DNA from: Kiritimatiellia bacterium
Lineage (GTDB): Bacteria > Verrucomicrobiota > Kiritimatiellia > RFP12 > UBA1067
Assembly: GCA_045595285.1 (NCBI GenBank)
Contig: JAZOAC010000132.1
Span: 456 to 64,455, forward strand
Reading direction: 5' to 3'
DNA length: 64,000 nucleotides
The notes beneath the pieces are model-generated. The model did no database searches, was not told the origin of the DNA, and worked only from the letters and a program-made list of their open reading frames with translations. Each line of letters starts with the position of its first letter. The first letter of the stretch is position 1. Positions 2,957 through 21,418 of this stretch are shown here, in pieces. The translations under genes were made by a program, and so were the position numbers.

Positions 2957-4537
2957 TCACGAAGCGGATCTAGCATCCAACTCATTCAGTTTCTTCATCA
3001 TCTTATCAAGTTTCTCTTTTTGCGAATGATAACTTGAACGTGTATCTTTTATCACATCCATCAATATGGAAGCCGAAAGTTTTTCCCATTGCTCTTTTTT
3101 ATCCAACCCGTATTTACCAACATTGTAATTAAAAACCCGTTTCATCGCCTCCTTGACAATGCTTTCAATATCAGCACCAGAATAATTTTCCGTATTCTTC
3201 AGTTCGGACACAACCTTTCCCAATTCATCGGGAAGTTCATTGTTATTTCTTCGCCTGATATGAAGTTCTAAAATCTGGCGACGCTCTGCCGCATCCGGAT
3301 ATTTCACTTGGAATATCTCATCAAATCTCCCACGACGCAAGAATTCGGGCGGCAGCTTATCAATGTTGTTGGCCGTCGCAACGACATATATGTTTGACGT
3401 TTTCTCCTGCATCCATGTAAGGAAAATACCGAACATCCTCGTCATTGAACTGCCGCCTCCGCCTTCGTCACCAATGCCGGAAAACGCCTTTTCTATTTCA
3501 TCAATCCACAAAACACATGGGGCGGCCGCTTCGGCGACAGATATTGCACGATGAAGATTTCCCTCACTTTCTCCCACATACTTTCCCATCAGCCGTCCTA
3601 CGTCCAATTTCAAGAGAGGAATTTCGAATTCCTTGGCAATTGTCTTGGCCATTAAGCTTTTCCCGCAGCCCGGCATGCCGACTATCATGATTCCAGCCGG
3701 TGCATCCACTCCATACTCTCGCGCCAACCCGGGATTCTGAAATATTGTTTTATTCGCGGCTATAAAATCGCGGAGTTTTCCAAGACCCCCTACTTCCCCA
3801 ATCGCATCTGTTTCTATCAATTCCAACAAACCGCTCTTTGAAATCAGCTGACGTTTTTCTTCATGCACCAACGAAAGATCATTACGGTTGAGTTTTTTGT
3901 CTTCAAGTGCCAAATCAAGTATCTGCCGTATTTCAAACTCTGAAAGTCCCAACAACGCTGTCACAAGCTCCGTACGAGAATCTGGATCAACTTTTGCAGA
4001 TTCCGATGCCACCACCTCGTCAATAATCTTACCGATAGCCTCTCTGTCAGGAGATTTCATCTCGACAACCGTAATCAGTTTTTCGAGTTCTGGGGGGATT
4101 CTCAATTGGGAATCGACAATGACAATCTGTACCCGATATTTATTGCCCGACTGCTCCTGTGCGACTTTCAATCGCCATGCTATTGTCTGAAGCAATGAGC
4201 AGACTCGTGGATTTGAAAGCGACTCATGAACTTCTCGCAATATCAGCAAATAATTATTCCTGTCATCATTCAGTTGCGACGTATTGAATTTCTCAAGAAA
4301 CTCCTCCAAAGTACATCTGCATCTTGGGTTTCGCGGTGATTTGGTCTTGAAAGATATCCAGCCTCCCGCCTCTGAATATTCTTCTATGCGACATACCTTA
4401 TCACCGCCCATACCAGGCACGCCAGACTTAGACAACAAAACATCAACTGATTTGAAGTCAAAATTTGGGATATAGATTATCGGCCGACGAGCCGCAAGAT
4501 AATCCTCTAAACACATTCCTGATGATTTGCTATTCAT
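2957..4537 (-). CDS. AAA+ ATPase, Ycf46-like (degenerate N-terminal AAA-like domain plus active AAA domain)
   Basis: Walker A GMPGCGKS, Walker B LWIDEIEKAF, sensor/R-finger ATANNIDKLPPEFLRRGRFDEIF, LKLDVGRLMGKYVGESE. Confidence 0.9.
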   Translation of the reverse strand: MNSKSSGMCLEDYLAARRPIIYIPNFDFKSVDVLLSKSGVPGMGGDKVCRIEEYSEAGGWISFKTKSPRNPRCRCTLEEFLEKFNTSQLNDDRNNYLLILREVHESLSNPRVCSLLQTIAWRLKVAQEQSGNKYRVQIVIVDSQLRIPPELEKLITVVEMKSPDREAIGKIIDEVVASESAKVDPDSRTELVTALLGLSEFEIRQILDLALEDKKLNRNDLSLVHEEKRQLISKSGLLELIETDAIGEVGGLGKLRDFIAANKTIFQNPGLAREYGVDAPAGIMIVGMPGCGKSLMAKTIAKEFEIPLLKLDVGRLMGKYVGESEGNLHRAISVAEAAAPCVLWIDEIEKAFSGIGDEGGGGSSMTRMFGIFLTWMQEKTSNIYVVATANNIDKLPPEFLRRGRFDEIFQVKYPDAAERRQILELHIRRRNNNELPDELGKVVSELKNTENYSGADIESIVKEAMKRVFNYNVGKYGLDKKEQWEKLSASILMDVIKDTRSSYHSQKEKLDKMMKKLNELDARSAS

Positions 4538-4543
4538 TTCTTT

Positions 4544-5101
4544 TCACCCCAATGCAACTGCCTTTTTAAGAAGGCTTAGCCCTATCTCGCCAATTTTTCT
4601 TACTGCAGATTGATAAAATGCTCTCGCTTTAGATACTATCTTCCTTGTCCCTATTTTAATCGCTTTATGCACTGATGGATTCCTTACCATTCGCCTCCCT
4701 AATGCTTCACCCGTGCACTTCCCCAGTTCTACAATTTTCGGATTGCCATGACTGGTTAACGCCCCTAATGCTCCGCCAATTGCGCCGCATGTCTTTATGG
4801 CCACCTTTTCAATGATGGATACAAGGACAACGGCCTTCCTGTCAGAGACTTCATCAATAGCATCCTCTTCACTTATCTTCCCTTCTCCTACTTGATATTC
4901 CTTGTTTTTTTGAAAAAGAGCGTTGTCGGAGGAAATCGCCGCGTCTCGAGGATCTATTTCCTTATCAATCAGCAAAATCGCAAGAGACGCAATTTTTCGT
5001 GCGACATCAAACTTATCGGAAGAAGTAGGATCCGAAATGGCTTCAACCATAAAGTCTGTCATTTTAAGTGGTGATGGAGCAATAACAGTTTCCATGTTCA
5101 T
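4544..5101 (-). CDS. Hypothetical protein with a glycine-zipper-like hydrophobic segment
   Basis: CGAIGGALGALT...GEALG followed by a basic amphipathic C-terminal helix. Lies 2 nt from the upstream stop and 6 nt from the ATPase start. Confidence 0.65.
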   Translation of the reverse strand: MNMETVIAPSPLKMTDFMVEAISDPTSSDKFDVARKIASLAILLIDKEIDPRDAAISSDNALFQKNKEYQVGEGKISEEDAIDEVSDRKAVVLVSIIEKVAIKTCGAIGGALGALTSHGNPKIVELGKCTGEALGRRMVRNPSVHKAIKIGTRKIVSKARAFYQSAVRKIGEIGLSLLKKAVALG

Positions 5102-5763: not shown

Positions 5764-5894
5764 TTCTCTCTCCTCGTTCGCGCCGTTTGTTCAACGCAAT
5801 CTCATCGGCGCAAAGAATGAGATATGCGGTCATTTCTTCACTGCTCCGCAGTCAAACACGAATCAAGGGTAAAATAAATCCTCTCTTCGTATTC

Positions 5895-6000
5895 CGGTAG
5901 AGGTCGTGAGAATAACCCTGAAGGAAATACAAAGAGAGGAAAACGCACATGCGTTCCTCTGCCAAGTATCGCCCTTCTGAAATTTCTCACGTTTCTACCG
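5895..6000. other. Long imperfect rod-like hairpin (about 106 nt)
   Basis: Nested pairs: cggtaga 5895-5901/tctaccg 5994-6000; cgtgagaa 5905-5912/ttctcacg 5984-5991; gaagg/ccttc; atac/gtat; agagga 5935-5940/tcctct 5955-5960; acgca/tgcgt. Confidence 0.6.
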
Positions 6001-6018
6001 ACGATCGCTTTGCAGCTA

Positions 6019-6094
6019 TGCAAATTGTTATGGTGACGAAGTGGTTGCTCCGTCTATGTCCGTTTTACTGAGTTATTGAGTTCTTCCTTTCATT
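6019..6094. repeat. TA-cassette 3' repeat, copy 1 (block A plus partial block B)
   Basis: tgcaaattgttatggtgacgaagtggttgctccgtctatgtccgttt (6019-6065) is near-identical to 7664-7710. ttcttcctttcatt at 6081-6094 matches block B. Confidence 0.85.
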
Positions 6095-6117
6095 ATTCAG
6101 TTCTTCAGATTTTGAAA

Positions 6118-6486
6118 TCATCCTAACACTTTACGCGCTTGAATATACGCGTCTAAACTTTTCAATTTCGGCAATGTCTCTGGAATAAAATTGACGAAGA
6201 CATCCCAAACATTCGCAAGGTCGATTCCGAAATATTGATGAATCAACACATCCCTGAACCCTGCCATCCCCGTCCAATCGATTTCAGGATGCGACATACG
6301 GAAATCGTCAGACAGATTTTTTGTCGCCTCTCCGGCGATTTCAAAACTTCGAACCACCGCATTGATCAACAATTTACTTTCGACAAAATCAGAATAATCC
6401 TTGCCCGATAGAAAATCAACCACATCCTGTAGTGAATCTGCAATATGCAATATGTATATACCGTCTGTCCGCTCAGTCTTGCTCAT
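6118..6486 (-). CDS. hepT: HepT-like HEPN ribonuclease toxin (DUF86)
   Basis: RX4HXY motif FRDVLIHQYF; AVVRSFEIAGEA; HPEIDW. Overlaps the mntA stop. Confidence 0.9.
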   Translation of the reverse strand: MSKTERTDGIYILHIADSLQDVVDFLSGKDYSDFVESKLLINAVVRSFEIAGEATKNLSDDFRMSHPEIDWTGMAGFRDVLIHQYFGIDLANVWDVFVNFIPETLPKLKSLDAYIQARKVLG

Positions 6487-6773
6487 ATCGCCACCGACTC
6501 CAACAAAACCTGATTCTGTATATACGGATGTATTCCGCGAGTCGAAACAACATCCACCTTTCGACCCAAAAAATCCCGCAATGCATTCATCAAATGGACA
6601 TGAGAAAGAAGCGACGACCCTTCGCCAAATTCAACCAGAAAATCGACGTCGCTCTCCGGCGTTTCCTCTTTACGTGCACACGAACCGAACACCCAAAGCT
6701 TTTCGGCTTTGTGCGCCCTTGCGACAGCGTAAATCTCATCGCGCTTCGCACGTATCTCGTCAAGCATGCACAT
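6483..6773 (-). CDS. mntA: MntA-like minimal nucleotidyltransferase antitoxin
   Basis: FGSCARKEETPESDVDFLV (GSX10DXD) and GRKVDVV. Confidence 0.9.
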   Translation of the reverse strand: MCMLDEIRAKRDEIYAVARAHKAEKLWVFGSCARKEETPESDVDFLVEFGEGSSLLSHVHLMNALRDFLGRKVDVVSTRGIHPYIQNQVLLESVAI

Positions 6774-6829
6774 ACTGCTATTTCATCCTTAAAGCGCCGT
6801 TATTATACTCCTTTTGACTGCATAGCGCA

Positions 6830-6860
6830 ACTCACGCCCTCCGACTCACGCCCTCCGACT
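6830..6860. repeat. 14-bp tandem repeat x2 (actcacgccctccg)
   Basis: Seen directly at 6830-6843 and 6844-6857. Confidence 0.8.
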
Positions 6861-6948
6861 TATCTTTACATTTCGCTAAAATATCCGGGATATTGGACTT
6901 GTCAAGCGATGAAAAGGCGAAACACTTTTTGCCGAGATGGTTGTGTAA

Positions 6949-7030
6949 TGTTGCCAATGTGGTAATGTTGCCAATGTGGTAGTGTTGCCAATGTGGTAGT
7001 GTTGCCAATTGCCAATGTTGCCAATTGCCA
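6949..7030. repeat. 17-bp tandem repeat (tgttgccaatgtggtaR x3 plus tgccaat fragments), 3' flank of the four-helix-bundle gene
   Basis: Units at 6949, 6966 and 6983, with partial units from 7000 to 7030. Confidence 0.9.
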
Positions 7031-7032
7031 TT

Positions 7033-7386
7033 TTAGCCCCCAATCTTTTTCTTCGCCGTTGTCACGCTCGCTGACAGAATGCGGGACAACTCCTTGGATT
7101 CAGCTATTAAGTCACTCAGCCTCGTAATTTCAATATATCCTGATTCTCCAATTAACTTCAACCATATGCGAGTTTCCGATAATTCCTTCATTGCAATCTT
7201 CAGCTTATGCACAAAATCTTTTGAAGATTCTGCCTCACATGCCTCCGCATAATTTGCAGCGATACTTGTTGCAGAGCGAAACATCTGATCTGCAAAATTT
7301 GCACTTCCAACCAATTTGACAGGTAGCAACGCGCAAGTCTTGACGCACTGTGCCGCAAATTTAACAATTCTATCTTCAAGTAACAT
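7033..7386 (-). CDS. Four helix bundle protein (23S rRNA-IVS/bAvd-like family)
   Basis: DQMFRSATSIAANYAEA...ESSKDFVHKLKIAMKELSETRIWL is the canonical family pattern. Confidence 0.92.
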   Translation of the reverse strand: MLLEDRIVKFAAQCVKTCALLPVKLVGSANFADQMFRSATSIAANYAEACEAESSKDFVHKLKIAMKELSETRIWLKLIGESGYIEITRLSDLIAESKELSRILSASVTTAKKKIGG

Positions 7387-7547
7387 TATGCCGCCCTCCC
7401 CATTGGAAATTGGACTTGGGAAGTGGCAACACTATCACATTGGCAACATTTCACTTCATCAAGCATAACCTGAACGCCGCGAATCGTGAAGATTCGCGAA
7501 CGTATCAAATCTGAGTTTGATAATTCCTGTATGGTCAGCTCGTTCAT
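7386..7547 (-). pseudogene. Truncated ORF6N-domain gene (MNELTIQELSNSDLIRSRIFTIRGVQVMLD...)
   Basis: IRSRIFTIRGVQVMLD matches the start of ORF6N. The frame then runs into the inverted repeat and stops in a TAATG overlap with the four-helix-bundle start. TGATATAAT lies at about 7579-7587. Confidence 0.7.
7424..7450. repeat. 27-bp inverted copy of the 6964-6990 repeat
   Basis: The reverse complement aatgttgccaatgtgatagtgttgcca differs from 6964-6990 at one base. Confidence 0.9.
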
Positions 7548-7663
7548 ACCCTATAAGATTACCGCAAGAAACGCTTGAATTATATCATTTTTTGCCACGG
7601 CAATGATCGAGGTCTTAAGAGGTCTTAATAAAATCTGCTCGTGCCCGTACTTTTTATCTCTGT

Positions 7664-7751
7664 TGCAAATTGTTATGGTGACGAAGCGGTTGCTCCGCCT
7701 ATATTCGTTTCAATCAGTCCTCTTTTCTTCCTTTCATTGTCTGGCTGCTGA
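7664..7751. repeat. TA-cassette 3' repeat, copy 2 (blocks A+B)
   Basis: Block A at 7664-7710. Block B caatcagtcctcttttcttcctttcattgtctggctgctga at 7711-7751. Ends 1 nt from the HEPN stop. Confidence 0.9.
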
Positions 7752-7752
7752 C

Positions 7753-8148
7753 TTAAATGAATTCATCCATGTTATCTGGTAATAGAGGTTCTTTTGGCAA
7801 TAATTCAACAATCGGCTTAAGTAACTCATCCAATATTGGCAAATCATAGCTGATTGCATTCCACACAATATCAAGATCGATATTTGCATAGTCATGAACG
7901 AGACGATGTCTAAGCCCCGCCCATCCAGCAAAATCAATCTCAGGATGTTCTGCACAAAAGGCATCCGAAATATTGTTTGCCGCCTCCCCTAAAACCTGCA
8001 AGTTGTAAATAATCAATTCTGTGCAATCATCACCTTCACGCATCATTGAGCGCTCCAAGCCTTCCATTTTAGACTTGATTCGTTCAACTGTACGCATCAT
8101 ATGCAAAAGACGATCCTCGTCTCTATAATTAGCGCCGCCACTTCTCAT
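7753..8148 (-). CDS. hepT: HepT-like HEPN ribonuclease toxin (DUF86), second copy
   Basis: LRHRLVHDY (RX4HXY), LQVLGEAA, HPEIDF. The ATG at 8148 overlaps the mntA TGA. Confidence 0.9.
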   Translation of the reverse strand: MRSGGANYRDEDRLLHMMRTVERIKSKMEGLERSMMREGDDCTELIIYNLQVLGEAANNISDAFCAEHPEIDFAGWAGLRHRLVHDYANIDLDIVWNAISYDLPILDELLKPIVELLPKEPLLPDNMDEFI

Positions 8149-8441
8149 ACAGCAACCGCCTCCCGACAAACTCGATTGGCAAAACGAGGAGAACTGCGCA
8201 AAACACCGGTAGAAACAACATCTACGCTACGTCCGAGAAGCAAAGAACAAAAGTCCTCAATCGCAGCGTAATCTCTATGACTAACATCCTTACCGAACTT
8301 CACCAAAAAATCCACGTCGCTTTCAGGAGTTTCCTCTTTGCGTGCGCACGAACCGAACACCCAAAGCTTTTCGGCTTTGTGCGCCCTTGCGACAGCGTAA
8401 ATCTCATCGCGCTTCGCCCGTATCTCGTCAAGCATACACAT
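8145..8441 (-). CDS. mntA: MntA-like nucleotidyltransferase antitoxin, second copy
   Basis: First 47 aa identical to 6483..6773. C-terminal half divergent. Confidence 0.9.
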   Translation of the reverse strand: MCMLDEIRAKRDEIYAVARAHKAEKLWVFGSCARKEETPESDVDFLVKFGKDVSHRDYAAIEDFCSLLLGRSVDVVSTGVLRSSPRFANRVCREAVAV

Positions 8442-8636
8442 GATTTTTATCTGTAAAACGCCGTTATTATACTTCTTTTCCGCTCTCTACGCAACCGGAA
8501 CAGGCATTGCCAAGGCTGGGGCAGATAGGGCGGAGGCGCGGCGACTTTCGAGGTGGTGCGGCGCATTCTGTTCACCTCTGAAATGCTCAATGCGAGTTTT
8601 ACAGTGTAAATTGCCAATCTCGAGAACCAGACAAAT

Positions 8637-9698
8637 TCAGGAGGCGGTGGATTCGCGGACGATGAGCGTTGTATCCAGAAGAATCTGCCGCGGCGGCAGA
8701 TCGGGATTCTTTATGCGCTCCAGCAAGGTGCGAAACGCCGTGGTCGCCAGATCGAAGCAGGGTTGACGGATAGAGGTCAAGGCCGGCTTCATCCTGCCGG
8801 CTTCGACAACATCGTCGAAACCGGCAAGCTTGACATCCCGCGGAATGCGCACTTTCAGCCTGGCAAGCGTTCTAGAAAGTTTCAATGCCGCGAGATCGTT
8901 GGAACAGACGATCGCATCCGGGCGATACGCGGCCAATCCGGCAGCTATCAAACCGACATCGGCAGGCTTCGCCTCGATTATATCCACATGTCGGCCGGTG
9001 ACGCGGTAGACTTCCGCGTCCACGCCCGCAAAACGCGCATGAACGCTGTCGGCGCTGAGTTTGTAGAGCAGGCAGCATATCCTTTTCGCCCCCGCATCGA
9101 TCAGATGCGCCGCGACCTTGCGTCCGGCATTGAAGTTGTCGATCGCGACAAGATCGTACTTGCTTCGCGCAGGCGGAGGAAGGATATCGTAGTCTATCAG
9201 AACAACCGGTATGCCAGCTTTGTCGAGTATGTCGGCGATTACCTCGTTTACGCTCTGCGCCTCTTTCGAATAAGCGACCGGCTGCATGATCACGCCTGCC
9301 GCAGGAATCGAAACCAAATGTCGTGCAAGACGTTCCGCCTGTAGACCGCGAGGTTTGTGAGCTACCGGAAACACATCTCCGGCCACAAGATCCATCCCGT
9401 ATTGATTGCAGTTGCAGACTAGGCCTTCCATAACCGCGGAAAAGAACTCCGAATCCGCAGTTCCCGGAATCGCAAGCCCGATTGTGCGGTTCACCTTCGA
9501 CACAAAAGTGCCTGACCCCTTCCGCACCGTGACAAGGCCAAGACGCCTCAGCTCTGCAATGCTGCGCACCGCGCTTGGACGCGAAACACCAAAGCGCCGC
9601 ACTATCTTTGTAAGACTGGGAAACGCGTCGGAATCCGAATAGATACCGGCGTGAATCTCATCGCGCAAAACCTTCGCAATCTCGATATAGTCAATCAT
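8637..9698 (-). CDS. GntR-HTH / LacI-type sugar-binding transcriptional regulator (AraR-like)
   Basis: FPSLTKIVRRFGVSRPSA...RKGSGTFV; C-terminal PDAIVCSND...VRIPRDVKLAGFDD...LTSIRQP...LIVREST. Confidence 0.9.
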   Translation of the reverse strand: MIDYIEIAKVLRDEIHAGIYSDSDAFPSLTKIVRRFGVSRPSAVRSIAELRRLGLVTVRKGSGTFVSKVNRTIGLAIPGTADSEFFSAVMEGLVCNCNQYGMDLVAGDVFPVAHKPRGLQAERLARHLVSIPAAGVIMQPVAYSKEAQSVNEVIADILDKAGIPVVLIDYDILPPPARSKYDLVAIDNFNAGRKVAAHLIDAGAKRICCLLYKLSADSVHARFAGVDAEVYRVTGRHVDIIEAKPADVGLIAAGLAAYRPDAIVCSNDLAALKLSRTLARLKVRIPRDVKLAGFDDVVEAGRMKPALTSIRQPCFDLATTAFRTLLERIKNPDLPPRQILLDTTLIVRESTAS

Positions 9699-9736
9699 CG
9701 CATGAAAAGCACCTAAAACAGACTCTTTACCAATCT

Positions 9737-9808
9737 CAATCAGTCCTCTTTTCTTCCTTTCATTGTCTGGTTGCTGATATGAAAATCAAAAATATCATCT
9801 TACTTCGC
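9737..9808. repeat. TA-cassette 3' repeat, copy 3 (block B plus extension)
   Basis: 72 nt identical to 11033-11104. Confidence 0.92.
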
Positions 9809-9958
9809 AACCGCTCCTTGCATCTGCCCATTGGCAAATTCAGGATGTGTCAAGCGCTGTTCTTCGAGCAATGCATCAAAGAACTCCCTGAACGACTTAT
9901 ATTTAGCCGCTATCGCATCCTTGATCGCCCTCAATTCCTTTGTTGCTTCAGTTTCCAT
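9800..9958 (-). CDS. Small protein (52 aa), paralog of the PIN-associated partner at 11096..11260
   Basis: Manual translation METEATKELRAIKDAIAAKYKSFREFFDALLEEQRLTHPEFANGQMQGAVAK. Below the ORF-track cutoff. Confidence 0.65.
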   Translation of the reverse strand: METEATKELRAIKDAIAAKYKSFREFFDALLEEQRLTHPEFANGQMQGAVAK

Positions 9959-10424
9959 AATCATATTTCTCTATTATTTCCGCTTTCAAAAAACTTATGC
10001 ACTTTAACGCCTCATGCGTACAAAAGCAAATCTGATGCGTCGGATACTTGAATTTTACCAAAGCCCAGAACGCTTCGCGGGAGATTACGCCGCTTACGAA
10101 ATCATTGACGTAATTCCAGACCGTATCATTCGCCATCGGGCCTTCAACGATATCGAAGTTATGTTCTTTCCCGCTGCGGCATTCGGCGATAAAATCGAGC
10201 CATTCATCCGTCATCGCATTGAACTTCTTAACCGACAACCCCTCGATAGTTTCAAATTCGTAATGGTTTATCACCGCGACAAGATTACGGTCTCGCTTCG
10301 CCCAGCGCTCAGCCTGCGCATAATTCGCCGTGCAATAAAACCCGAAACCGAAATCTTTGGCATAAACCGCTTTACGGATTTCAGGCTTTTTAACCTCAAC
10401 ATCACTGGCGTGGTAAAGTATCAT
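9948..10424 (-). CDS. DUF3990 family protein (predicted ADP-ribosyltransferase-like fold, putative toxin)
   Basis: MILYHAS...KDFGFGFYCT...QAERWA...EWLDFIAECR...DIVEGPMAND...HQICF. Confidence 0.8.
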   Translation of the reverse strand: MILYHASDVEVKKPEIRKAVYAKDFGFGFYCTANYAQAERWAKRDRNLVAVINHYEFETIEGLSVKKFNAMTDEWLDFIAECRSGKEHNFDIVEGPMANDTVWNYVNDFVSGVISREAFWALVKFKYPTHQICFCTHEALKCISFLKAEIIEKYDYGN

Positions 10425-10900
10425 TGCAATAACCTCCCCGCCTTATATGATTCCCACTGATAACTCGGGTTTTCAAAATAGACGCCATTGGCGAAATCGG
10501 AGATTTCATCAATGATAAAAGAGCTAAAAACCTTCCGAAACGGAGAGAGCATATCTGCAACGGTGATAATTGGCGCATCAGAGCGCCCCATTTCACTCTC
10601 GATTAGCGTCGAATACACGCGCCCGATTGATGTCGCTGTTGGAATTGAATACTTGCAGTTCGTTATCGTATCATAATCGCCGTTTTTAATTCCACAATCG
10701 GCTATAAGTTCATCCGACACCCTTTCAAACGGCAGGCAGTGATTCAAATCGGCATATTCAAGGTGGTGTTTAAGACAATCGTCATCCATCGCGGCGACAA
10801 TATCGCCGCGCTTATTATTCGTTTTACGCCCGACATACTCTACTAGCGAACAGACATAAAACAAATCATTCTTTTTCTTTTCGTCCAACACAAAACACAT
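10421..10900 (-). CDS. Partner of DUF3990 (DUF3791-like, putative antitoxin)
   Basis: NDLFYVCSLVEYVGRKT...HCLPFERVSDE...IGRVY. 4-nt overlap with DUF3990. Confidence 0.6.
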   Translation of the reverse strand: MCFVLDEKKKNDLFYVCSLVEYVGRKTNNKRGDIVAAMDDDCLKHHLEYADLNHCLPFERVSDELIADCGIKNGDYDTITNCKYSIPTATSIGRVYSTLIESEMGRSDAPIITVADMLSPFRKVFSSFIIDEISDFANGVYFENPSYQWESYKAGRLLQ

Positions 10901-11032
10901 TATAGCACTTTTCTTATTATAATCCCACTATGTGATCCAAACACATTTAAGGAGCTTCTTCCTGCTACTTCCTGTGCGGAAAATCTGTTTTCGCTCCGCC
11001 AAAACGCCACACGCTTCAACGAAACCTTGTTT

Positions 11033-11104
11033 CAATCAGTCCTCTTTTCTTCCTTTCATTGTCTGGTTGCTGATATGAAAATCAAAAATATCATCTTACT
11101 TCGC
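11033..11104. repeat. TA-cassette 3' repeat, copy 4
   Basis: Identical to 9737-9808. Preceded by gttt, as in copy 2. Confidence 0.92.
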
Positions 11105-11260
11105 CGCCGCTTCCATCGTCGGTCCATTGGCAAATTCAGGATGATGTTCTGCCTGATACTTGAGAAGATCTTGAAAATAATCATGAAATGATTTATATCC
11201 AGATGAAAGTTCTTCCTTGATCTTCCAAAGTTCTTCCATTATTTCAGACTTCAATTCCAT
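11096..11260 (-). CDS. Small PIN-associated partner protein (54 aa, putative antitoxin)
   Basis: Manual translation MELKSEIMEELWKIKEELSSGYKSFHDYFQDLLKYQAEHHPEFANGPTMEAAAK. SD GGAGG upstream, 1 nt after the PIN stop. Confidence 0.7.
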   Translation of the reverse strand: MELKSEIMEELWKIKEELSSGYKSFHDYFQDLLKYQAEHHPEFANGPTMEAAAK

Positions 11261-11261
11261 T

Positions 11262-11747
11262 TCATACCTCCTTCATCAATTGTTCGGGCGTACAGATCAA
11301 TGGACACGCAAAACCATTAACCTTGCATGTTTCATATATCTTGGGCATCGTCTCACCATTTGCAATATGTCGACAATTCCATGTGACAAGAAAATCCATC
11401 CTGTTCACAGCCGCTATTGCAATATGAACAGCATCCTCATAACTTGTTCTCGGAACAGCCGTCGCTTCAAGCAATTTCTCTGCCAGATTCTCTGCTTCAG
11501 GTATAATAGGTAATTTCTCCAAACGAGCAACAGCCTCCATCCTTCGAGCGGCAGCATCCGCGTCACCTCTTTGTGCCTCACGCTCTACAAGAACAGAGGA
11601 AAAAAGCTCATAAGACGTCTCGGCATCATCCCACCATTGCTGCGTAGCGACTTGACGGGCAAGATCAACAATATTAAGCGACCGCCGCGCGGTCAGGTTG
11701 CTGACCACGCTCGTTTCGACATAAACTTTTTTCTTTGCTTCCGCCAT
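11262..11747 (-). CDS. PIN-domain (VapC-like) toxin
   Basis: KVYVETSVV...EDAVHIAIA...DFLVTWNCRHIAN...ICTPEQL. Start placed at MAEAKKK. TATAAT at 11773-11778. Confidence 0.88.
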   Translation of the reverse strand: MAEAKKKVYVETSVVSNLTARRSLNIVDLARQVATQQWWDDAETSYELFSSVLVEREAQRGDADAAARRMEAVARLEKLPIIPEAENLAEKLLEATAVPRTSYEDAVHIAIAAVNRMDFLVTWNCRHIANGETMPKIYETCKVNGFACPLICTPEQLMKEV

Positions 11748-12009
11748 ACAATCCTCTCGAAATATCGCTACTATTATACATCTTTTCATTGCCGCACGCA
11801 ACGACGCAGGCCCTCACCGCTCCCGAGGAAAGTTCTACAATGTCGTGAGTCAAATCGGAAAGCCGGATTGTCGAGGTGGAGACAAGAGGCGAAATGGGAA
11901 AACGATAGAGATCGAAAGAGGAGGGAGAAGAGAAAAAGGAAGGTATGCGCCCCCTCGGGGGCATCGCGCCAAAAAAAGGAGACTTGAAAAGGCGGCCTCG
12001 AAACCGGGG

Positions 12010-13093: not shown

Positions 13094-13135
13094 GTCATCA
13101 ATTCTCACAAATTATAATTTGTGAGAATTGATGAC
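13094..13135. repeat. Perfect 42-bp palindrome
   Basis: gtcatcaattctcacaaatta|taatttgtgagaattgatgac. Contains the TAA of the ArsR gene at its centre. Confidence 0.95.
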
Positions 13136-13720: not shown

Positions 13721-13758
13721 GCTCAATTCTCACAAATTATAATTTGTGAGAATTGAGC
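13721..13758. repeat. Perfect 38-bp palindrome sharing a 32-bp core with 13094-13135
   Basis: gctcaattctcacaaatta|taatttgtgagaattgagc. Confidence 0.95.
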
Positions 13759-14166
13759 ACAGAACGTGAGGGATGACCAGATCCCGAAAATGAGAATTCG
13801 ATTCGGAACAATTCTCTCGCTTCTAATGTAATGAGGCCGCGGGATGATGAGAATATGGTTTGGACTGATTCTCAAGATTACGGTTTCTGAGAGGATTAGC
13901 AAGATTACGGCTCGGACGAAATCTTATGTATCTCTAAAAAAAAAACGCTATTTCACAAAACCACCAGAATCACAAGCGAAATTACCACTCTTTTCAGGGT
14001 CCCACCCCAATTATTCGTTCCCGAATTTCAGGCGGAACGCAAGCGGTTCTTCTTCGGTCTTCCGGAAATCGGCGTCTGCATGTCTCGGACAGGGTGAAAT
14101 TGTCGAGAATGTCAGCGCCGAGCGGGACAAGAATCACCTGAATTGCACAAAAAGCCAACTTGAAAA

Positions 14167-20200: not shown

Positions 20201-21346
20201 CTTCGTCTCGACCACTCTTCCTCTCTTATTCCGCTCGACGATGCGACAACCGGTGAACTCGCAGGTGAACGGGCATCTCAGAGAGGCCTTTATCGAAAAG
20301 ACGTTGTTTCGCGGATGCTCGAACGAGCTGTCGCGGAATATGAGCCGTCCGCCGATTTCCGAGCGGTCGTCCCGCGTGTTGTGCACGGTGACAGCTGTTG
20401 CATTGCCAATGGTGCGGCAGCGTTCAAACACCATGTCAAAGGGCTGCGATTTTCCCGGAACCAACCTGCCCAGGGCAAGCTCTATGCCATGACTCTTGTT
20501 GTTCTCAAAGACACAGTCCCGCATCACAATGCCCCGCATCAGATCCTCCGGGGAATTCGGCTCGAAGTCTATCCCCGACTGCGGCGGCAATCCGCGTGTG
20601 TTCTTGAACGTGCAGCGTTCCACAATCAATCCATCGACACTTGTGACACTGATTCCCTGACGGACGCTTGTATCGACACATACGTCTTCGATGCGTATGC
20701 CGGTGGAGGCGCGCACGCCGTCTGTGATGCCGAAAGCCTTGCCCCGGCGCTTCTTGAGAGCGCCCACATAGATGCCGTCGCCTCCGGCGTTAAGTATCTT
20801 GAGTCCCCTGACTATGGCATTGTGCGTCCCCAGTATTGTTATGGCGTGACGCCATTCGGATTTCCGGTACGGAGGCTTCAGGTAATCATCGTGGTGCATA
20901 CGAAGAACGCCTTTGCCTCCTATCACGACATTGCTGCACCCCGGAAACGAGAATACGCAATCATCCTTTCCGAGATACGCGCCTTTCTTGGCCTCCACCA
21001 CCGCACCATCCTCGAAGAATATCTCCTGGTTAGAACGGCCCCGCAATGGCAGCACAATCCAGCGGCGGGCATCGACCACAACCTTTTTCGCTCCGGAATC
21101 GATTGCCGCCTGCATAAACCTGGTGGAATCTTCAGCGTCGAAGCCAAACTCCGAAACCCGCACCACATCCTTCGCCAATGAAGACGCGACGGCCAATGTC
21201 ACCACGACCGCAAGATTGAACTTATGTGTCATCCTGCAGAGCAGAGATCCATGCCCCGGCATTGCCGATGCTATTTTCCCCACGTCAAACCGTACATGCG
21301 GATTTCCCGCATACGGCTTTCCATTGATCGCTTCTCTCTTTGCCAC
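17210..21346 (-). CDS. Large secreted fusion: right-handed beta-helix + DUF4838-like GH domain + CBM9-like domain
   Basis: GGDGIYVG, RQGISVTS, PQSGIDFEPN (beta-helix); NGVHKWLE, HNM, MNFCESNP, VRFCP (DUF4838-like); GDFIELFF...GWRAIVVIPF (CBM9-like). The signal peptide starts at ATG 21232. An alternative GTG at 21346 has an SD. Confidence 0.8.
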   Translation of the reverse strand: MAKREAINGKPYAGNPHVRFDVGKIASAMPGHGSLLCRMTHKFNLAVVVTLAVASSLAKDVVRVSEFGFDAEDSTRFMQAAIDSGAKKVVVDARRWIVLPLRGRSNQEIFFEDGAVVEAKKGAYLGKDDCVFSFPGCSNVVIGGKGVLRMHHDDYLKPPYRKSEWRHAITILGTHNAIVRGLKILNAGGDGIYVGALKKRRGKAFGITDGVRASTGIRIEDVCVDTSVRQGISVTSVDGLIVERCTFKNTRGLPPQSGIDFEPNSPEDLMRGIVMRDCVFENNKSHGIELALGRLVPGKSQPFDMVFERCRTIGNATAVTVHNTRDDRSEIGGRLIFRDSSFEHPRNNVFSIKASLRCPFTCEFTGCRIVERNKRGRVVETKVDDEWVVRNLPFLSAKNKVPTVKPAPDFSRARVSDSRPGEMVKLSPIRFRHQLRFVFYADRARTIKFKWRQNPIGRYSRAVSGEVEFSDVDGKIIASVPLPGKDVETLKFDAPRAGFYFLDSRRIGLQLSLLECAAPIAADLTSDWCAAIGSQGELYFSVPEYAPEFGFFVSGDGSEAIGVELVSSTGRSVYNCPSVFAWKGHIEQAGADAGLWKAVFKKAEKGLLEDWMFDITGIVGHVFLSPEKFWSFDYPMSSHPAVEWAHEEFTNFATKVFGSAPPVRFRLPSENGLFAADWNRLEGTDGYAVRWRDGVLNFVAANPKGLVNGVHKWLERHTDIIWPRPGGDLCFYTKRPAPDGWKGLQDEYVDIPAFLRRTLGSGSKLPEIWRYRVRNGDTSLHDRGTRLEHRTLAVRYGMIGCHKDYWGGGRGHNMQKVWFPKTECPDHPEYRMMIDGKRWTGGKMNFCESNPGFVKAFCDAVERKMPSVPRDIKLINITIEDRVLTCQCDECQKPIRLDDGTFLEAGDPAYRSTRFFRFYNQVARRVAAVRPGAKAIVHGYYHLTDAPRIKLEKNIIVRFCPYPRNMRESFVEGSTNRRWREKLDGWLASGAEIGLREYYWCGNLFFPRPMADTAAVDLRYFLEKGGKYVYAPIVESDDEVMQGANAKGVMRPRSEFYDMNAMEAWVVERLFWNPSLDPAALRREFLSRTFGPAAGDVGRFYGEVRRSWYSNSISSGFCDNPFRMASIYIVQNGISDKCREALKAAFAKADCEERRKWIASMQRILEMWIDESPKYKQVETRVRFTGTPKKPHFDMFHGKPWSRGTSLTGFTRIRPAAIPETAGVNTRIYANERELVLGIDVKKGGLPVVTHSTSDRNACSTGDFIELFFEADRASYRHFMLAADGTRNKAVVSDGSKDCKWESRVEKTQEGWRAIVVIPFSSLQFEPNVNPQLRFFERVSLGLPDRNAKCGAFGWQNGVPHTPSTWGTLFVSSSDASN
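21236..21321 (-). ncRNA. Group II intron domain V + degenerate domain VI remnant
   Basis: GAAAGCCGTATGCGGGAAATCCGCATGTACGGTTTG has the AGC triad, stem, GAAA loop and bulge. It is followed by ACGTGGGG...CTCTGCTCTGC, which resembles a DVI end (canonical CTCTACTCTAC). No RT gene and no domains I-IV nearby. Confidence 0.85.
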
Positions 21347-21381
21347 AGCTTTCGTCCTTTCTTCGCTTTAAATGGCTGTGA

Positions 21382-21408
21382 ATTATATTTGTTTTTTTTT
21401 TCTGTCAA
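21382..21408 (-). promoter_or_regulatory. Consensus sigma70 promoter TTGACA-N15-TATAAT with an A10 tract in the spacer
   Basis: tgtcaa at 21403-21408, attata at 21382-21387, and t x10 at 21392-21401. Confidence 0.7.
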
Positions 21409-21418
21409 ATCCGCGTTT

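What the first reader, a model, noticed from the sequence alone, without database searches (positions are those of the whole stretch)
6019..11801. Array of four co-oriented TA modules, each ending in the same repeated element (integron-like, no attC consensus)
Seen in sequence: MntA/HepT, MntA/HepT, DUF3791-like/DUF3990 plus a small ORF, and PIN plus a small partner are each followed closely by related DNA. Copies lie at 6019-6094, 7664-7751, 9737-9808 and 11033-11104. Copies 3 and 4 are identical over 72 nt, copies 1 and 2 share block A, and all keep the minus-strand core AATGAAAGGAAGAA. Unrelated toxin families sharing one 3' boundary suggests cassette capture or shuffling. The element lacks the RYYYAAC/GTTRRRY attC ends and no integrase is in the window. 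Inference: a recombination hotspot of an undescribed type, possibly an anti-phage TA array.
Basis: partly seen in the sequence, partly recalled or inferred. Interest (0 to 1): 0.75.

Follow-up and report, generated by a model that had tools for sequence, protein, structure and literature searches.

The report
Shared end-cap repeat of toxin-antitoxin modules
A short conserved DNA element sits directly after the stop codon of many unrelated toxin-antitoxin gene modules in gut Kiritimatiellae and marks the joints where these modules are stacked and swapped, without any integron machinery.

Summary
Four co-oriented minus-strand copies of a repeat with the invariant core AATGAAAGGAAGAA each follow a toxin-antitoxin-type module.

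It is not a local duplication. This genome has about 10 copies. The element occurs in 62 of 221 genomes of the same family (gut and rumen Kiritimatiellae). It has three subtypes and often lies in arrays of 2-5 modules.

In 79 of 88 distinct copies a co-oriented gene ends just upstream, usually 0-5 nt before the element. These genes are mostly HepT, PIN, GNAT-like, DUF2442, Rpn and small partner ORFs.

The element is the first piece of a modular spacer: element, then GC hairpins, then the next module's promoter. The same module is joined to different neighbours in different genomes, with the break at the element.

It is not an integron. It has no AAC/GTT boxes. None of 21 element-bearing genomes has an integron integrase, while 3 element-free relatives do.

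Breakpoints fall at several positions. MntA/HepT modules also share a conserved 5' cap. Copies within one array are homogenised. I therefore favour homologous recombination between shared caps over a dedicated recombinase. That mechanism is inferred, not shown. The role of the Shine-Dalgarno-like core is unknown.

The parts
11262..11801 (-). PIN-like toxin candidate, first gene of module 1
   Evidence: Weak Pfam PIN match (E 1.4e-3, below cut-off). Clear relatives (KKKVYVETSV...WNCRHIAN) recur with the same overlapping small partner ORF in the array of another genus.
11096..11260 (-). 54-aa partner ORF of module 1
   Evidence: No Pfam or NCBIfam family. Homologous to 9800-9964 (44% aa). The same small-ORF family follows PIN genes and precedes the element in other genomes.
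11029..11082 (-). Element copy 4 (subtype 2). Imperfect inverted repeat TTTCA-t-ATCAG / CTGAT-TGAAA around a purine-rich stretch holding the core AATGAAAGGAAGAA.
   Evidence: Homology edges at -22 and +32 from the core. Weak fold: -6.5 kcal/mol, z -1.2.
10421..10900 (-). 159-aa gene of module 2 (unverified 'DUF3791-like')
   Evidence: No family match. Its end overlaps the DUF3990 start by 4 nt.
9948..10424 (-). DUF3990 protein of module 2
   Evidence: Pfam DUF3990, E 9e-52.
9800..9964 (-). 54-aa small ORF of module 2
   Evidence: Its 3' end is part of the 112-nt repeat shared with copy 4 (family D2).
9733..9786 (-). Element copy 3 (subtype 2)
   Evidence: Homology with a congeneric genome's GntR upstream region starts about 9 nt after the element's 3' end.
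8637..9698 (-). GntR-HTH/periplasmic-binding regulator. Resident chromosomal gene, not a cassette.
   Evidence: Pfam. The homologue in G093 lies next to a housekeeping gene with no element.
7753..8479 (-). Module 3: promoter, MntA (8145-8441), HepT (7753-8169)
   Evidence: Pfam, NCBIfam. The unit's left edge at about 8477-8479 lies between -35 and -10 of its promoter.
7707..7760 (-). Element copy 2 (subtype 2). Its 5' arm overlaps the HepT stop codon.
7664..7706 (-). 'Block A', copy 2: 7-bp hairpin GGCGGAG-N6-CTTCGTC (7680-7699) plus ACCATAACAATTTGCA (7664-7679), a truncated start of the rod leader
   Evidence: The stem is kept and the loop varies in copies from other contigs.
6118..6816 (-). 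Module 4: promoter, MntA (6483-6773), HepT (6118-6486)
   Evidence: Pfam. Its 5' cap 6625-6815 is 87-91% identical to 8293-8479, while the HepT proteins are only 32-35% identical.
6060..6117 (-). Element copy 1 (subtype 1): ...GAACTGAAT-AATGAAAGGAAGAA-CTCAATAACTCAGTAAAACGG
   Evidence: 94% identical over 317 nt to contig C52, where it follows a KilA-N gene.
6019..6054 (-). 'Block A', copy 1: hairpin GACGGAG-N6-CTTCGTC (6035-6054) plus tail (6019-6034)
5851..6028 (-). 'Rod' leader. A separate repeated structured element starting with hairpin TTTGCA-N4-TGCAAA, placed ahead of the Cys-rich peptide/AAA operon.
   Evidence: Repeated on C52, C63, C118 and C176 and in many genomes of the genus. The composite 5835-6120 folds at -89.9 kcal/mol, z -5.1.

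Best explanation
The repeat ('E') is a lineage-specific, orientation-specific intergenic cap of about 54 nt, found in gut and rumen Kiritimatiellae. It begins 0-5 nt after the stop codon of the last gene of small self-contained toxin-antitoxin or defence-type modules (promoter, antitoxin, toxin). It is the first unit of a modular spacer: E, then one or two GC-rich hairpins, then the promoter of the next module or a long structured leader.

Shown:
- its sequence limits and three subtypes;
- its tight placement after stop codons;
- its enrichment behind TA-type genes;
- its occurrence in arrays in several genera;
- many-to-many joining of upstream modules and downstream flanks at E.

Inferred:
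- E is transcribed as the 3' untranslated end of the module. Its invariant core AATGAAAGGAA matches the local ribosome-binding consensus, so it may act as a decoy ribosome site or a stabiliser ahead of terminator-like hairpins.
- Because many modules share it, it serves as portable homology. Modules are exchanged, accreted in tandem and homogenised by ordinary homologous recombination between caps. E is the 3' cap. For MntA/HepT modules the 5' cap is the promoter plus the first roughly 110 nt of mntA.
- The result is an integron-like array with no integrase and no attC.
For: Distribution:
- About 10 copies on 8 contigs of this genome.
- 62 of 221 family genomes and 8 of 27 genera.
- All 25 named genome hits are Kiritimatiellae/Kiritimatiellia MAGs from ruminant or human gut.
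- 31 metagenome contigs.
- None in viral contigs, phage records or plasmid records.

Sharp unit: pairwise homology edges pile up at -21 to -23 and at +27 to +32 from the core.

Placement: 79 of 88 non-redundant copies have a co-oriented ORF of at least 40 aa ending upstream. The stop-to-core gap peaks at 22-27 nt.

Cargo: the upstream ORFs fall into 51 clusters and 24 families; of 40 representatives scanned, HepT 7, PIN 3, DUF2442 2, ORF6N 2, and one each of Rpn, KilA-N, GNAT and a JetB-like protein.

Array in another genus (G112): five modules, each followed by E, hairpin 2 and hairpin 3, then a TGnTATAAT promoter.

Shuffling: the same upstream gene has different downstream flanks. Examples are copy 2 versus L030 (break at +25), copy 1 versus L072 (+14), C17 versus L132 (+27), and L105, L103 and L046 (+54 to +73). 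One downstream class has five different upstream partners.

Pointers to homologous rather than site-specific exchange:
- Breakpoints fall at several positions: -22, -13, 0, +14, +25 to +32, +82.
- Chimeric elements switch subtype inside the invariant core (L072).
- Copies 2-4 of this array are 97-100% identical although attached to unrelated modules, while the orthologous HepT module in G087 carries a different 5' half.
- All MntA modules share the promoter and mntA 5' end at DNA level while the rest differs.
- No recombinase gene recurs within 5 kb of copies.

SD-like core: the same 11-mer sits 5-8 nt upstream of real start codons elsewhere.
Against: - No transcript data.
- Hairpin 1 is thermodynamically weak (z about -1.2 to -1.5). 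Covariation is inconclusive: 85.8% of cells pair, but sliding the partner by +3 columns gives the same covariation score.
- 54 nt is short for efficient RecA-dependent exchange.
- Homologous recombination does not by itself explain why E abuts the stop codon so exactly, or why the core is invariant across subtypes and genera.
- A trans-acting recombinase cannot be excluded. Serine recombinase genes are commoner in E-bearing genomes (12 of 21 against 2 of 20).
- No empty site or excised circle was observed.
- All data come from fragmented MAGs, and ORFs were called by a simple script.
Confidence: 0.45

Rival explanations
1. E is a dedicated site-specific recombination site. As folded single-stranded DNA (an 11-bp stem with one bulged base, as in attC) or as duplex DNA, it would be used by a recombinase encoded elsewhere (XerC/XerD, a serine recombinase or an unknown enzyme). 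That enzyme would excise and insert TA cassettes, making this an integron analogue with a new type of site.
For: - Arrays of co-oriented cassettes, each ending in the site right after the stop codon.
- A sharply bounded unit delimited by an inverted repeat with a bulged base in subtype 2.
- High conservation across genera and unrelated cargo.
- Many-to-many joining at the site.
- Serine recombinase genes occur in 12 of 21 E-bearing genomes against 2 of 20 E-free genomes.
Against: - No AAC/GTT boxes.
- Integron integrase absent from all 21 E-bearing genomes tested (G000 plus 20 others) and present only in 3 E-free genomes.
- Several E-rich genomes have only two Xer-like tyrosine recombinases and no serine recombinase.
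- No recombinase recurs near copies.
- Breakpoints lie at several positions, not one.
- The inverted repeat is not conserved in register between subtypes, and subtype 3 has only a 4-5-bp stem.
- The arms are 28 nt apart, unlike duplex Xer or serine-recombinase sites.
Confidence: 0.2
2. E is a miniature non-autonomous transposable element (MITE-like or REP-like) with 11-12-bp terminal inverted repeats. A transposase acting in trans would insert it preferentially just downstream of stop codons.
For: - In subtype 2 the homology limits coincide exactly with the ends of the inverted repeat.
- Patchy distribution at 80-94% identity across genera.
- Y1 (HUH) transposase-like genes occur in most genomes of the family.
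Against: - No target-site duplication is visible at the junctions.
- 79 of 88 copies are co-oriented with the upstream gene, whereas a MITE should insert in both orientations.
- At most about 10 copies per genome.
- The same HepT gene carries different E subtypes in different genomes, which is replacement and not presence/absence.
- No allele lacking E between the same two flanks was found.
- Y1 transposase presence does not track E: 19 of 21 against 14 of 20.
- Subtypes 1 and 3 lack comparable terminal repeats.
Confidence: 0.12
3. E is primarily an RNA regulatory element of the toxin transcript, and the shuffling is incidental. Options are a decoy ribosome-binding site, a tiny ORF (MKGRKEN* and variants) read by ribosomes leaving the toxin stop codon, a protein-binding loop, or a 3'-UTR-derived small RNA. 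It would tune toxin synthesis or mRNA decay.
For: - Fixed orientation and a fixed 22-27-nt distance between stop codon and core.
- The invariant core equals the local SD-like motif found before real start codons.
- Changes in the mini-ORF of subtypes 1 and 2 are synonymous or conservative.
- A minigene is known to modulate toxin expression in the axe-txe system (PMC8708949), there placed upstream of the toxin gene.
Against: - No SD precedes the ATG of the mini-ORF.
- In subtype 3, indels change the mini-ORF's frame and length, so a conserved peptide is unlikely.
- No Rfam family matches.
- No expression data.
- This reading does not explain near-identical DNA behind unrelated toxins unless it is combined with recombination or mobility.
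Confidence: 0.18
4. The four copies come from one local tandem duplication or are a chance resemblance.
For: The two MntA/HepT modules are paralogous at their 5' ends (spacing 1645-1668 nt). The two small ORFs are homologous (spacing 1296 nt).
Against: Copies occur on seven other contigs of this genome and in 61 other genomes, behind unrelated genes. The 14-mer core is expected 0 times by chance.
Confidence: 0.01

Closest known systems
Integron gene-cassette arrays and attC clusters without integrase (CALINs), especially sedentary chromosomal integrons rich in TA cassettes (e.g. PMC13108822; established knowledge)
   Same: Tandem, co-oriented small cassettes. A conserved repeat of 54-130 nt starts at or just after each cassette's stop codon. 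Repeats within one array are highly similar. The cargo is rich in toxin-antitoxin genes. The same cassette has different neighbours in different genomes.
   Different: No RYYYAAC/GTTRRRY boxes and no conserved AAC/GTT. The stem is short and its register differs between subtypes. Modules carry their own promoters. No integron integrase occurs in any E-bearing genome, while true IntI genes occur in three E-free genera of the same family. Breakpoints are not at a single position.
REP/BIME-type repetitive extragenic palindromes (established knowledge)
   Same: Short intergenic imperfect palindromes located 3' of genes. They are possibly transcribed as part of the 3' UTR, and can affect mRNA stability and translation of the upstream gene when close to the stop codon.
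   Different: About 10 copies per genome instead of hundreds. E is restricted to TA, defence and mobile-type genes. The orientation is fixed. A long purine-rich centre carries an invariant SD-like core. No link to a RAYT-type transposase was found.
pdif (XerC/XerD-site) modules of Acinetobacter plasmids (recalled from memory, not tested against sequences)
   Same: Small discrete modules, often TA pairs, bounded by short repeated sites and found in different combinations. The host's housekeeping recombinases would suffice.
   Different: E shows no 11-6-11 Xer-type site. Its arms are 28 nt apart. E is chromosomal and always in one orientation, whereas pdif sites alternate in orientation.
Tandem accretion of cassettes with repeated ends, and allelic exchange through conserved flanks. 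Includes notes of this scan on other genomes (e1-3205877, e1-4532221, e1-3918891).
   Same: TA modules are stacked in a row, each separated by a repeated end-piece, with no recombinase nearby. Conserved ends bracket a variable centre.
   Different: Here the repeat is not a copy of a neighbouring gene's end or a tRNA/att site. It is an autonomous, family-wide element with three subtypes and an SD-like invariant core.

Membership tests
Integron attC site / gene cassette | R'' (RYYYAAC) and R' (GTTRRRY) boxes with conserved AAC and GTT triplets at the two ends | tested here: not met
   Read directly on the alignments of 53 and 32 copies. The ends are TTTTCAC... / ...TGAAAC (subtype 2) or AATCTCAAATCG... 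/ ...CAGTTAAAACG (subtype 3). There is no GTT at the 3' end on either strand.
Integron attC site / gene cassette | Integron integrase (IntI) in the genome or lineage | tested here: not met
   TIGR02249 is below cut-off in the own genome and in 20 of 20 other E-bearing genomes. It is above cut-off only in E-free G001, G003 and G009.
Integron attC site / gene cassette | Imperfect hairpin with extrahelical bases formed by one strand | tested here: inconclusive
   Subtype 2 has an 11-bp stem with one bulged base, but the fold is weak: DNA -3.9 kcal/mol, z -1.1; RNA -6.4 kcal/mol, z -1.5. Covariation is not distinguishable from a slid control. Subtype 3 has only 4-5 bp.
Integron attC site / gene cassette | Arrays of co-oriented cassettes with the site at the 3' end of each ORF | tested here: met
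   Four copies in the window. Five in G112:C48, and 2-3 in several other contigs. The element starts 0-5 nt after the stop codon.
MITE | Terminal inverted repeats | tested here: inconclusive
   Present in subtype 2 (11 of 12 bp). Absent or only 4-5 bp in subtypes 1 and 3.
MITE | Target-site duplication and presence/absence polymorphism; insertion in either orientation | tested here: not met
   No direct repeats flank the unit. No E-less allele between the same flanks was found. 79 of 88 copies are co-oriented with the upstream gene.
REP/BIME | Hundreds of copies spread over intergenic regions, with an associated RAYT (Y1 transposase) | tested here: not met
   At most 10 copies per genome. Y1_Tnp presence does not follow E: 19 of 21 against 14 of 20.
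Xer (dif/pdif) site | Two 11-bp arms in inverted orientation around a 6-8-bp central region | tested here: not met
   By inspection of the consensus only. The only inverted arms are 28 nt apart. The genome's own dif site was not identified, so similarity to it was not tested.
Intrinsic (Rho-independent) terminator | GC-rich stem followed by a U tract | tested here: not met
   The consensus scan finds none at any copy. Hairpin 1 is AT-rich with a 28-nt loop. The GC hairpins that follow E in other genomes lack a U tract. Whether this lineage terminates without U tracts is unknown.
Type VII TA module MntA/HepT (the cargo) | Nucleotidyltransferase antitoxin followed by a HEPN RNase with the Rx4-6H motif | tested here: met
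   Pfam NTP_transf_2/Polbeta and HepT-like above cut-off for both pairs. NCBIfam MntA/HepT matches are below the equivalog cut-off. Toxicity was not tested.
Rfam RNA families | Match to any curated covariance model | tested here: not met
   No relevant match in the window or in 11 related loci.

The most novel reading that the evidence does not exclude
E is the recombination site of an integrase-free cassette platform specialised for toxin-antitoxin and defence modules. A trans-acting enzyme, not an integron integrase, recognises the E hairpin or core. It excises modules as circles and inserts them at the 5' edge of another E, typically upstream of the long 'rod' leaders of surface-protein or defence operons. 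That would be a second, independently evolved integron-like system in a phylum where it has not been described.
Probability: 0.2. Interest if true: 0.8.

Novelty: new variant of a known kind. Interest (0 to 1): 0.55.

Why it matters
Toxin-antitoxin and defence genes often pile up in arrays, but outside integrons the way they are gathered and exchanged is poorly understood. Here a whole bacterial family from animal guts uses one short conserved cap behind dozens of unrelated toxin modules. The cap lies at the joints where modules change partners.

If the cap only provides homology, it is a simple, general route to integron-like gene stacking without special enzymes. If a dedicated enzyme uses it, it is a new cassette system. 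In either case the invariant ribosome-site-like core placed a fixed distance after the toxin stop codon is a testable candidate for a new way of controlling toxin expression. The element is also a practical marker for finding unannotated TA and defence modules in Kiritimatiellae metagenomes.

Tried and rejected
- Rfam scans of the region, the whole window and 11 related loci found nothing relevant.
- Group II intron remnant. The intron tail at 21230-21420 has no similarity to E, and E has no GUGYG start and no domain V.
- attC and integron: rejected.
- Rpn (PDDEXK_2) nuclease as the responsible enzyme. It occurs in 9 of 21 E-bearing genomes against 1 of 20 E-free genomes. However, E-rich genomes such as G171, G164 and G191 have none, and Rpn genes are themselves followed by E, so they are cargo.
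- Y1 transposase shows no association.
- Serine recombinase shows an association but is absent from 9 of 21 E-bearing genomes. It may only reflect mobile-element load.
- Conserved micro-peptide. The frame and length are not kept in subtype 3.
- Orthologous-locus comparison within the genus. The flanks are on different small contigs and the array is not conserved in place, so no clean empty site could be shown.
- An apparent insertion into the loop of hairpin 2 (L041) turned out to be a junction with truncated chromosomal genes.
- Phage or plasmid carriage: no matches.
- A literature search found no description of this element.

Full report
**What is there**

All genes between 2957 and 13726 lie on the minus strand. 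The core AATGAAAGGAAGAA occurs four times in the window, all on the minus strand, against zero expected by chance. Read in the direction of the genes, the order is as follows.
- A PIN-like gene and an overlapping 54-aa ORF, followed by element copy 4 (11029-11082).
- A 159-aa gene, a DUF3990 gene and a homologous 54-aa ORF, followed by copy 3 (9733-9786).
- A GntR-type regulator gene.
- MntA/HepT, followed by copy 2 (7707-7760) and 'block A'.
- An ORF6N remnant interrupted by a four-helix-bundle gene.
- A second MntA/HepT, followed by copy 1 (6060-6117), block A and a long rod-like hairpin that leads into an AAA-ATPase operon.

These assignments rest. Copies 3 and 4 are identical over 73 nt. 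Copies 2-4 share 45 nt at 93-98%.

Three points need correcting. The PIN match is weak. The 'DUF3791-like' label has no database support. The GntR gene is resident chromosome, not cargo: in a congeneric genome its homologue follows a housekeeping gene with no element, and homology to the window begins about 9 nt after the end of copy 3.

**Not a local duplication**

The own genome (3.8 Mb, 184 contigs, 86% complete) has further copies on contigs C17, C52, C63, C107 and C123, a partial copy on C148, and block A alone on C162. An exact-pattern scan of reference genomes returned 25 loci. All are Kiritimatiellae/Kiritimatiellia MAGs from yak, sheep, deer and human gut. The metagenome scan returned 31 contigs. 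Three patterns found nothing in viral contigs, and BLAST found nothing in phage or plasmid records.

A sequence-only covariance model built from 32 copies found the element in 62 of 221 genomes of the family and in 8 of 27 genera. There are three subtypes:
- subtype 1, as in copy 1;
- subtype 2, as in copies 2-4;
- subtype 3, the most widespread: AATCTCAAATCGTGAAACTGAC-AATGAAAGGAAC-AAGCCCATAGACAGTTAAAACGATAAGG.

Only AATGAAAGGAA and part of the 3' half are invariant.

**Anatomy**

I compared 400-nt flanks of about 55 copies pairwise. The left edges of homology pile up at -21 to -23 from the core and the right edges at +27 to +32, with further steps at +41 to +45, +73 and +81/82. The unit is therefore about 54 nt long.

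In subtype 2 the unit is delimited exactly by an imperfect inverted repeat, TTTCA-c-ATCAGT ... ACTGAT-TGAAA, around 28 purine-rich nucleotides. The fold is weak: RNA -6.4 kcal/mol, z -1.5; DNA -3.9 kcal/mol. Pair counts give 85.8% paired, but the covariation score is matched by a control slid by +3 columns. Subtypes 1 and 3 pair in a different register with only 4-5 bp. I do not regard the hairpin as established.

The core is the local Shine-Dalgarno-like motif. The same 11-mer lies 5-8 nt upstream of real start codons elsewhere in these genomes. A mini-ORF starts in the core: MKGRKEN*, MKGRTQ* or MKGTSP*. In subtype 3 its frame and length change with indels.

**Context**

Of 88 non-redundant copies, 79 have a co-oriented ORF of at least 40 aa ending upstream. 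The distance from the stop codon to the core peaks at 22-27 nt, so the element starts 0-5 nt after the stop. The upstream proteins fall into 51 clusters at 80% identity and 24 families.

Of 40 representatives scanned, matches are:
- HepT in 7;
- PIN in 3;
- DUF2442 in 2;
- ORF6N in 2;
- one each of Rpn/PDDEXK_2, KilA-N, GNAT and a JetB-like protein.

The rest have no family match and include several unannotated small ORFs and GNAT-like 200-aa proteins. Further Rpn genes are directly followed by the element (coordinates). It is therefore not a generic terminator.

**Arrays elsewhere**

G112 belongs to another genus. On one of its contigs, five modules follow each other: an antitoxin fragment, a PIN fragment fused to a small ORF, two PIN plus small-ORF pairs, and MntA/HepT. 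Each is followed 2-8 nt after its stop by the same spacer:
- subtype-3 element;
- hairpin GGCGGGGAGAAATCCGCC;
- hairpin TTTGCAATGCTGCAAA.

After each spacer comes an extended -10 promoter (TGnTATAAT) and the next module. The last spacer runs into a 'rod' leader and a leucine-rich-repeat protein gene.

Most subtype-2 copies are followed by a different GC hairpin. Its stem shows a compensatory change, CCGGTC/GGCCGG versus CCGATC/GGTCGG, and its loop varies. That hairpin ends in CTTCTCCAC and is often followed by a structured non-coding region of about 350 nt with no Rfam match.

The element is thus the first piece of a modular spacer.

**Shuffling**

The same upstream module is joined to different downstream sequences.
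- The HepT of copy 2 and its 87%-identical relative in G087 diverge at +25.
- The HepT of copy 1 and a 91%-identical metagenomic relative diverge at +14. This yields a chimeric element that switches subtype inside the core.
- The 94-aa gene on C17 and its relative diverge at +27.
- One HepT module has three different right-hand neighbours.
- One downstream class, a TTGCCA-17-TATAAT promoter element, has five different left-hand neighbours.

Modules also have discrete left edges 40-80 nt upstream of the antitoxin start, between the -35 and -10 promoter boxes. All MntA/HepT modules share the promoter and the first roughly 110 nt of mntA at 85-95% DNA identity. The rest of MntA and HepT differ: the two HepT proteins here are 32-35% identical. 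These modules therefore have conserved caps at both ends and a variable centre.

**Which mechanism**

No attC boxes are present. The own genome has three tyrosine recombinases, and none scores as an integron integrase. None of 20 other element-bearing genomes has one either. Three element-free genomes from other genera of the family do have one.

No recombinase or transposase cluster recurs within 5 kb of copies. Across 21 E-bearing and 20 E-free genomes, family presence is:

| Family | E-bearing genomes | E-free genomes | Comment |
|---|---|---|---|
| Rpn nuclease | 9 of 21 | 1 of 20 | Missing from several element-rich genomes; the genes are themselves cargo |
| Y1 transposase | 19 of 21 | 14 of 20 | No association |
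| Serine recombinase | 12 of 21 | 2 of 20 | Absent from 9 E-bearing genomes |

The serine recombinase result is a lead, not a finding.

Three observations fit homologous recombination and gene conversion between shared caps better than one defined crossover: breakpoints at several positions, chimeras at the only stretch identical between subtypes, and local homogenisation. On homogenisation, copies 2-4 are nearly identical behind unrelated modules, while the G087 orthologue of module 3 has a different 5' half.

Three things remain unexplained by that model: the exact abutment to stop codons, the fixed orientation and the invariant core. They point to an additional function in the transcript, or to a recognition step I could not detect.

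**Limits**

All genomes are fragmented MAGs. ORFs were called with a simple script. Breakpoints come from BLAST. No empty site or circle was seen. Two literature searches found no description of this element. A minigene that tunes Txe toxin translation (PMC8708949) is the nearest published idea for the mini-ORF, but there it lies upstream of the toxin gene.

**Verdict**

This is a real, family-wide, previously undescribed repeat that caps toxin-antitoxin modules and marks their joints. It resembles an integron in layout but is not one. The mechanism is unresolved. My weights are:
- homology-driven exchange plus a 3'-UTR role: 0.45;
- a dedicated site-specific system: 0.20;
- an RNA-only regulatory role: 0.18;
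- a MITE: 0.12.

Noticed in passing
window 6943-7454 (gene 7033-7386): A four-helix-bundle (23S rRNA IVP / TIGR02436) gene is bracketed by 27-33-nt inverted repeats. The 3' repeat is amplified as 17-nt tandem units. The whole unit is inserted in an ORF6N gene, leaving a 53-aa remnant (7386-7547). Similar low-complexity inverted-repeat stems, with or without such a gene, are inserted after CTTCTCCAC downstream of the element in other genomes (C107, L043, L044, L056).
   Followed up: partly
window 5851-6028; also C52, C63, C118, C176 and many genomes of the genus: A 'rod' leader of about 180 nt forms a bulged long hairpin preceded by hairpin TTTGCA-N4-TGCAAA. It is repeated several times per genome, upstream of small membrane proteins, leucine-rich-repeat proteins and the AAA operon. 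The composite 5835-6120 folds with z -5.1. There is no Rfam match.
   Followed up: partly
L038:1106-1345, L036, L052, L056; own genome C17:45801-45947, C123:2185-2329, C162:10245-10391: A second conserved structured non-coding region of about 350 nt has GNRA-type hairpins and a long rod. It is widespread downstream of the element and upstream of diverse genes. No Rfam match.
   Followed up: partly
window 6625-6816 and 8293-8479: The promoter and first roughly 110 nt of mntA are 87-91% identical between the two modules. The same segment appears in at least 8 MntA modules from other contigs and genomes, while the remainder of MntA and HepT is unrelated at DNA level. The 5' cap is conserved and the specificity region is variable.
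   Followed up: yes
window 11096-11801; L125:3351-4050 and 4139-4887: A recurrent gene pair: a PIN-like protein (KKKVYVETSV...WNCRHIAN) followed by an overlapping 54-70-aa ORF. The small ORF has no Pfam or NCBIfam family and in many copies, though not the window's two (...AAK*, ...VAK*), ends in ...AMA*. This partner lies downstream of the PIN gene, unlike classical VapBC.
   Followed up: partly
window 11827-11979: The segment bounding the upstream end of the array is 96% identical to the start of contig C148. There it precedes an ORF6N-promoter remnant, a 65-aa small ORF and a partial element.
   Followed up: no
window 13094-13135, 13723-13761 and 13721-14016: Perfect long palindromes bracket a double-wHTH (ArsR-like) gene. 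The 13721-14016 segment is repeated on dozens of contigs in this and congeneric genomes.
   Followed up: no
G009:C237:767-1702, G001:C143:6991-7845, G003:C17:750483-751412: True integron integrases (TIGR02249 at 358-417 bits, cut-off 265) occur in three other genera of the same family. None of these genomes has the element.
   Followed up: no
own genome C24:1336, C42:3709, C87, C157:35: Another repeat family, gcgccaagcaaagctcggcagagctaacag-AATGAAAGGAAGCTGTACGG..., shares the same SD-like 11-mer but is otherwise unrelated to the element.
   Followed up: no
own genome C123:834-1091: A HepT gene is truncated inside its RNxxxH motif (…GMRNV) by fusion to the element core. This is a junction at position 0 of the core.
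   Followed up: partly
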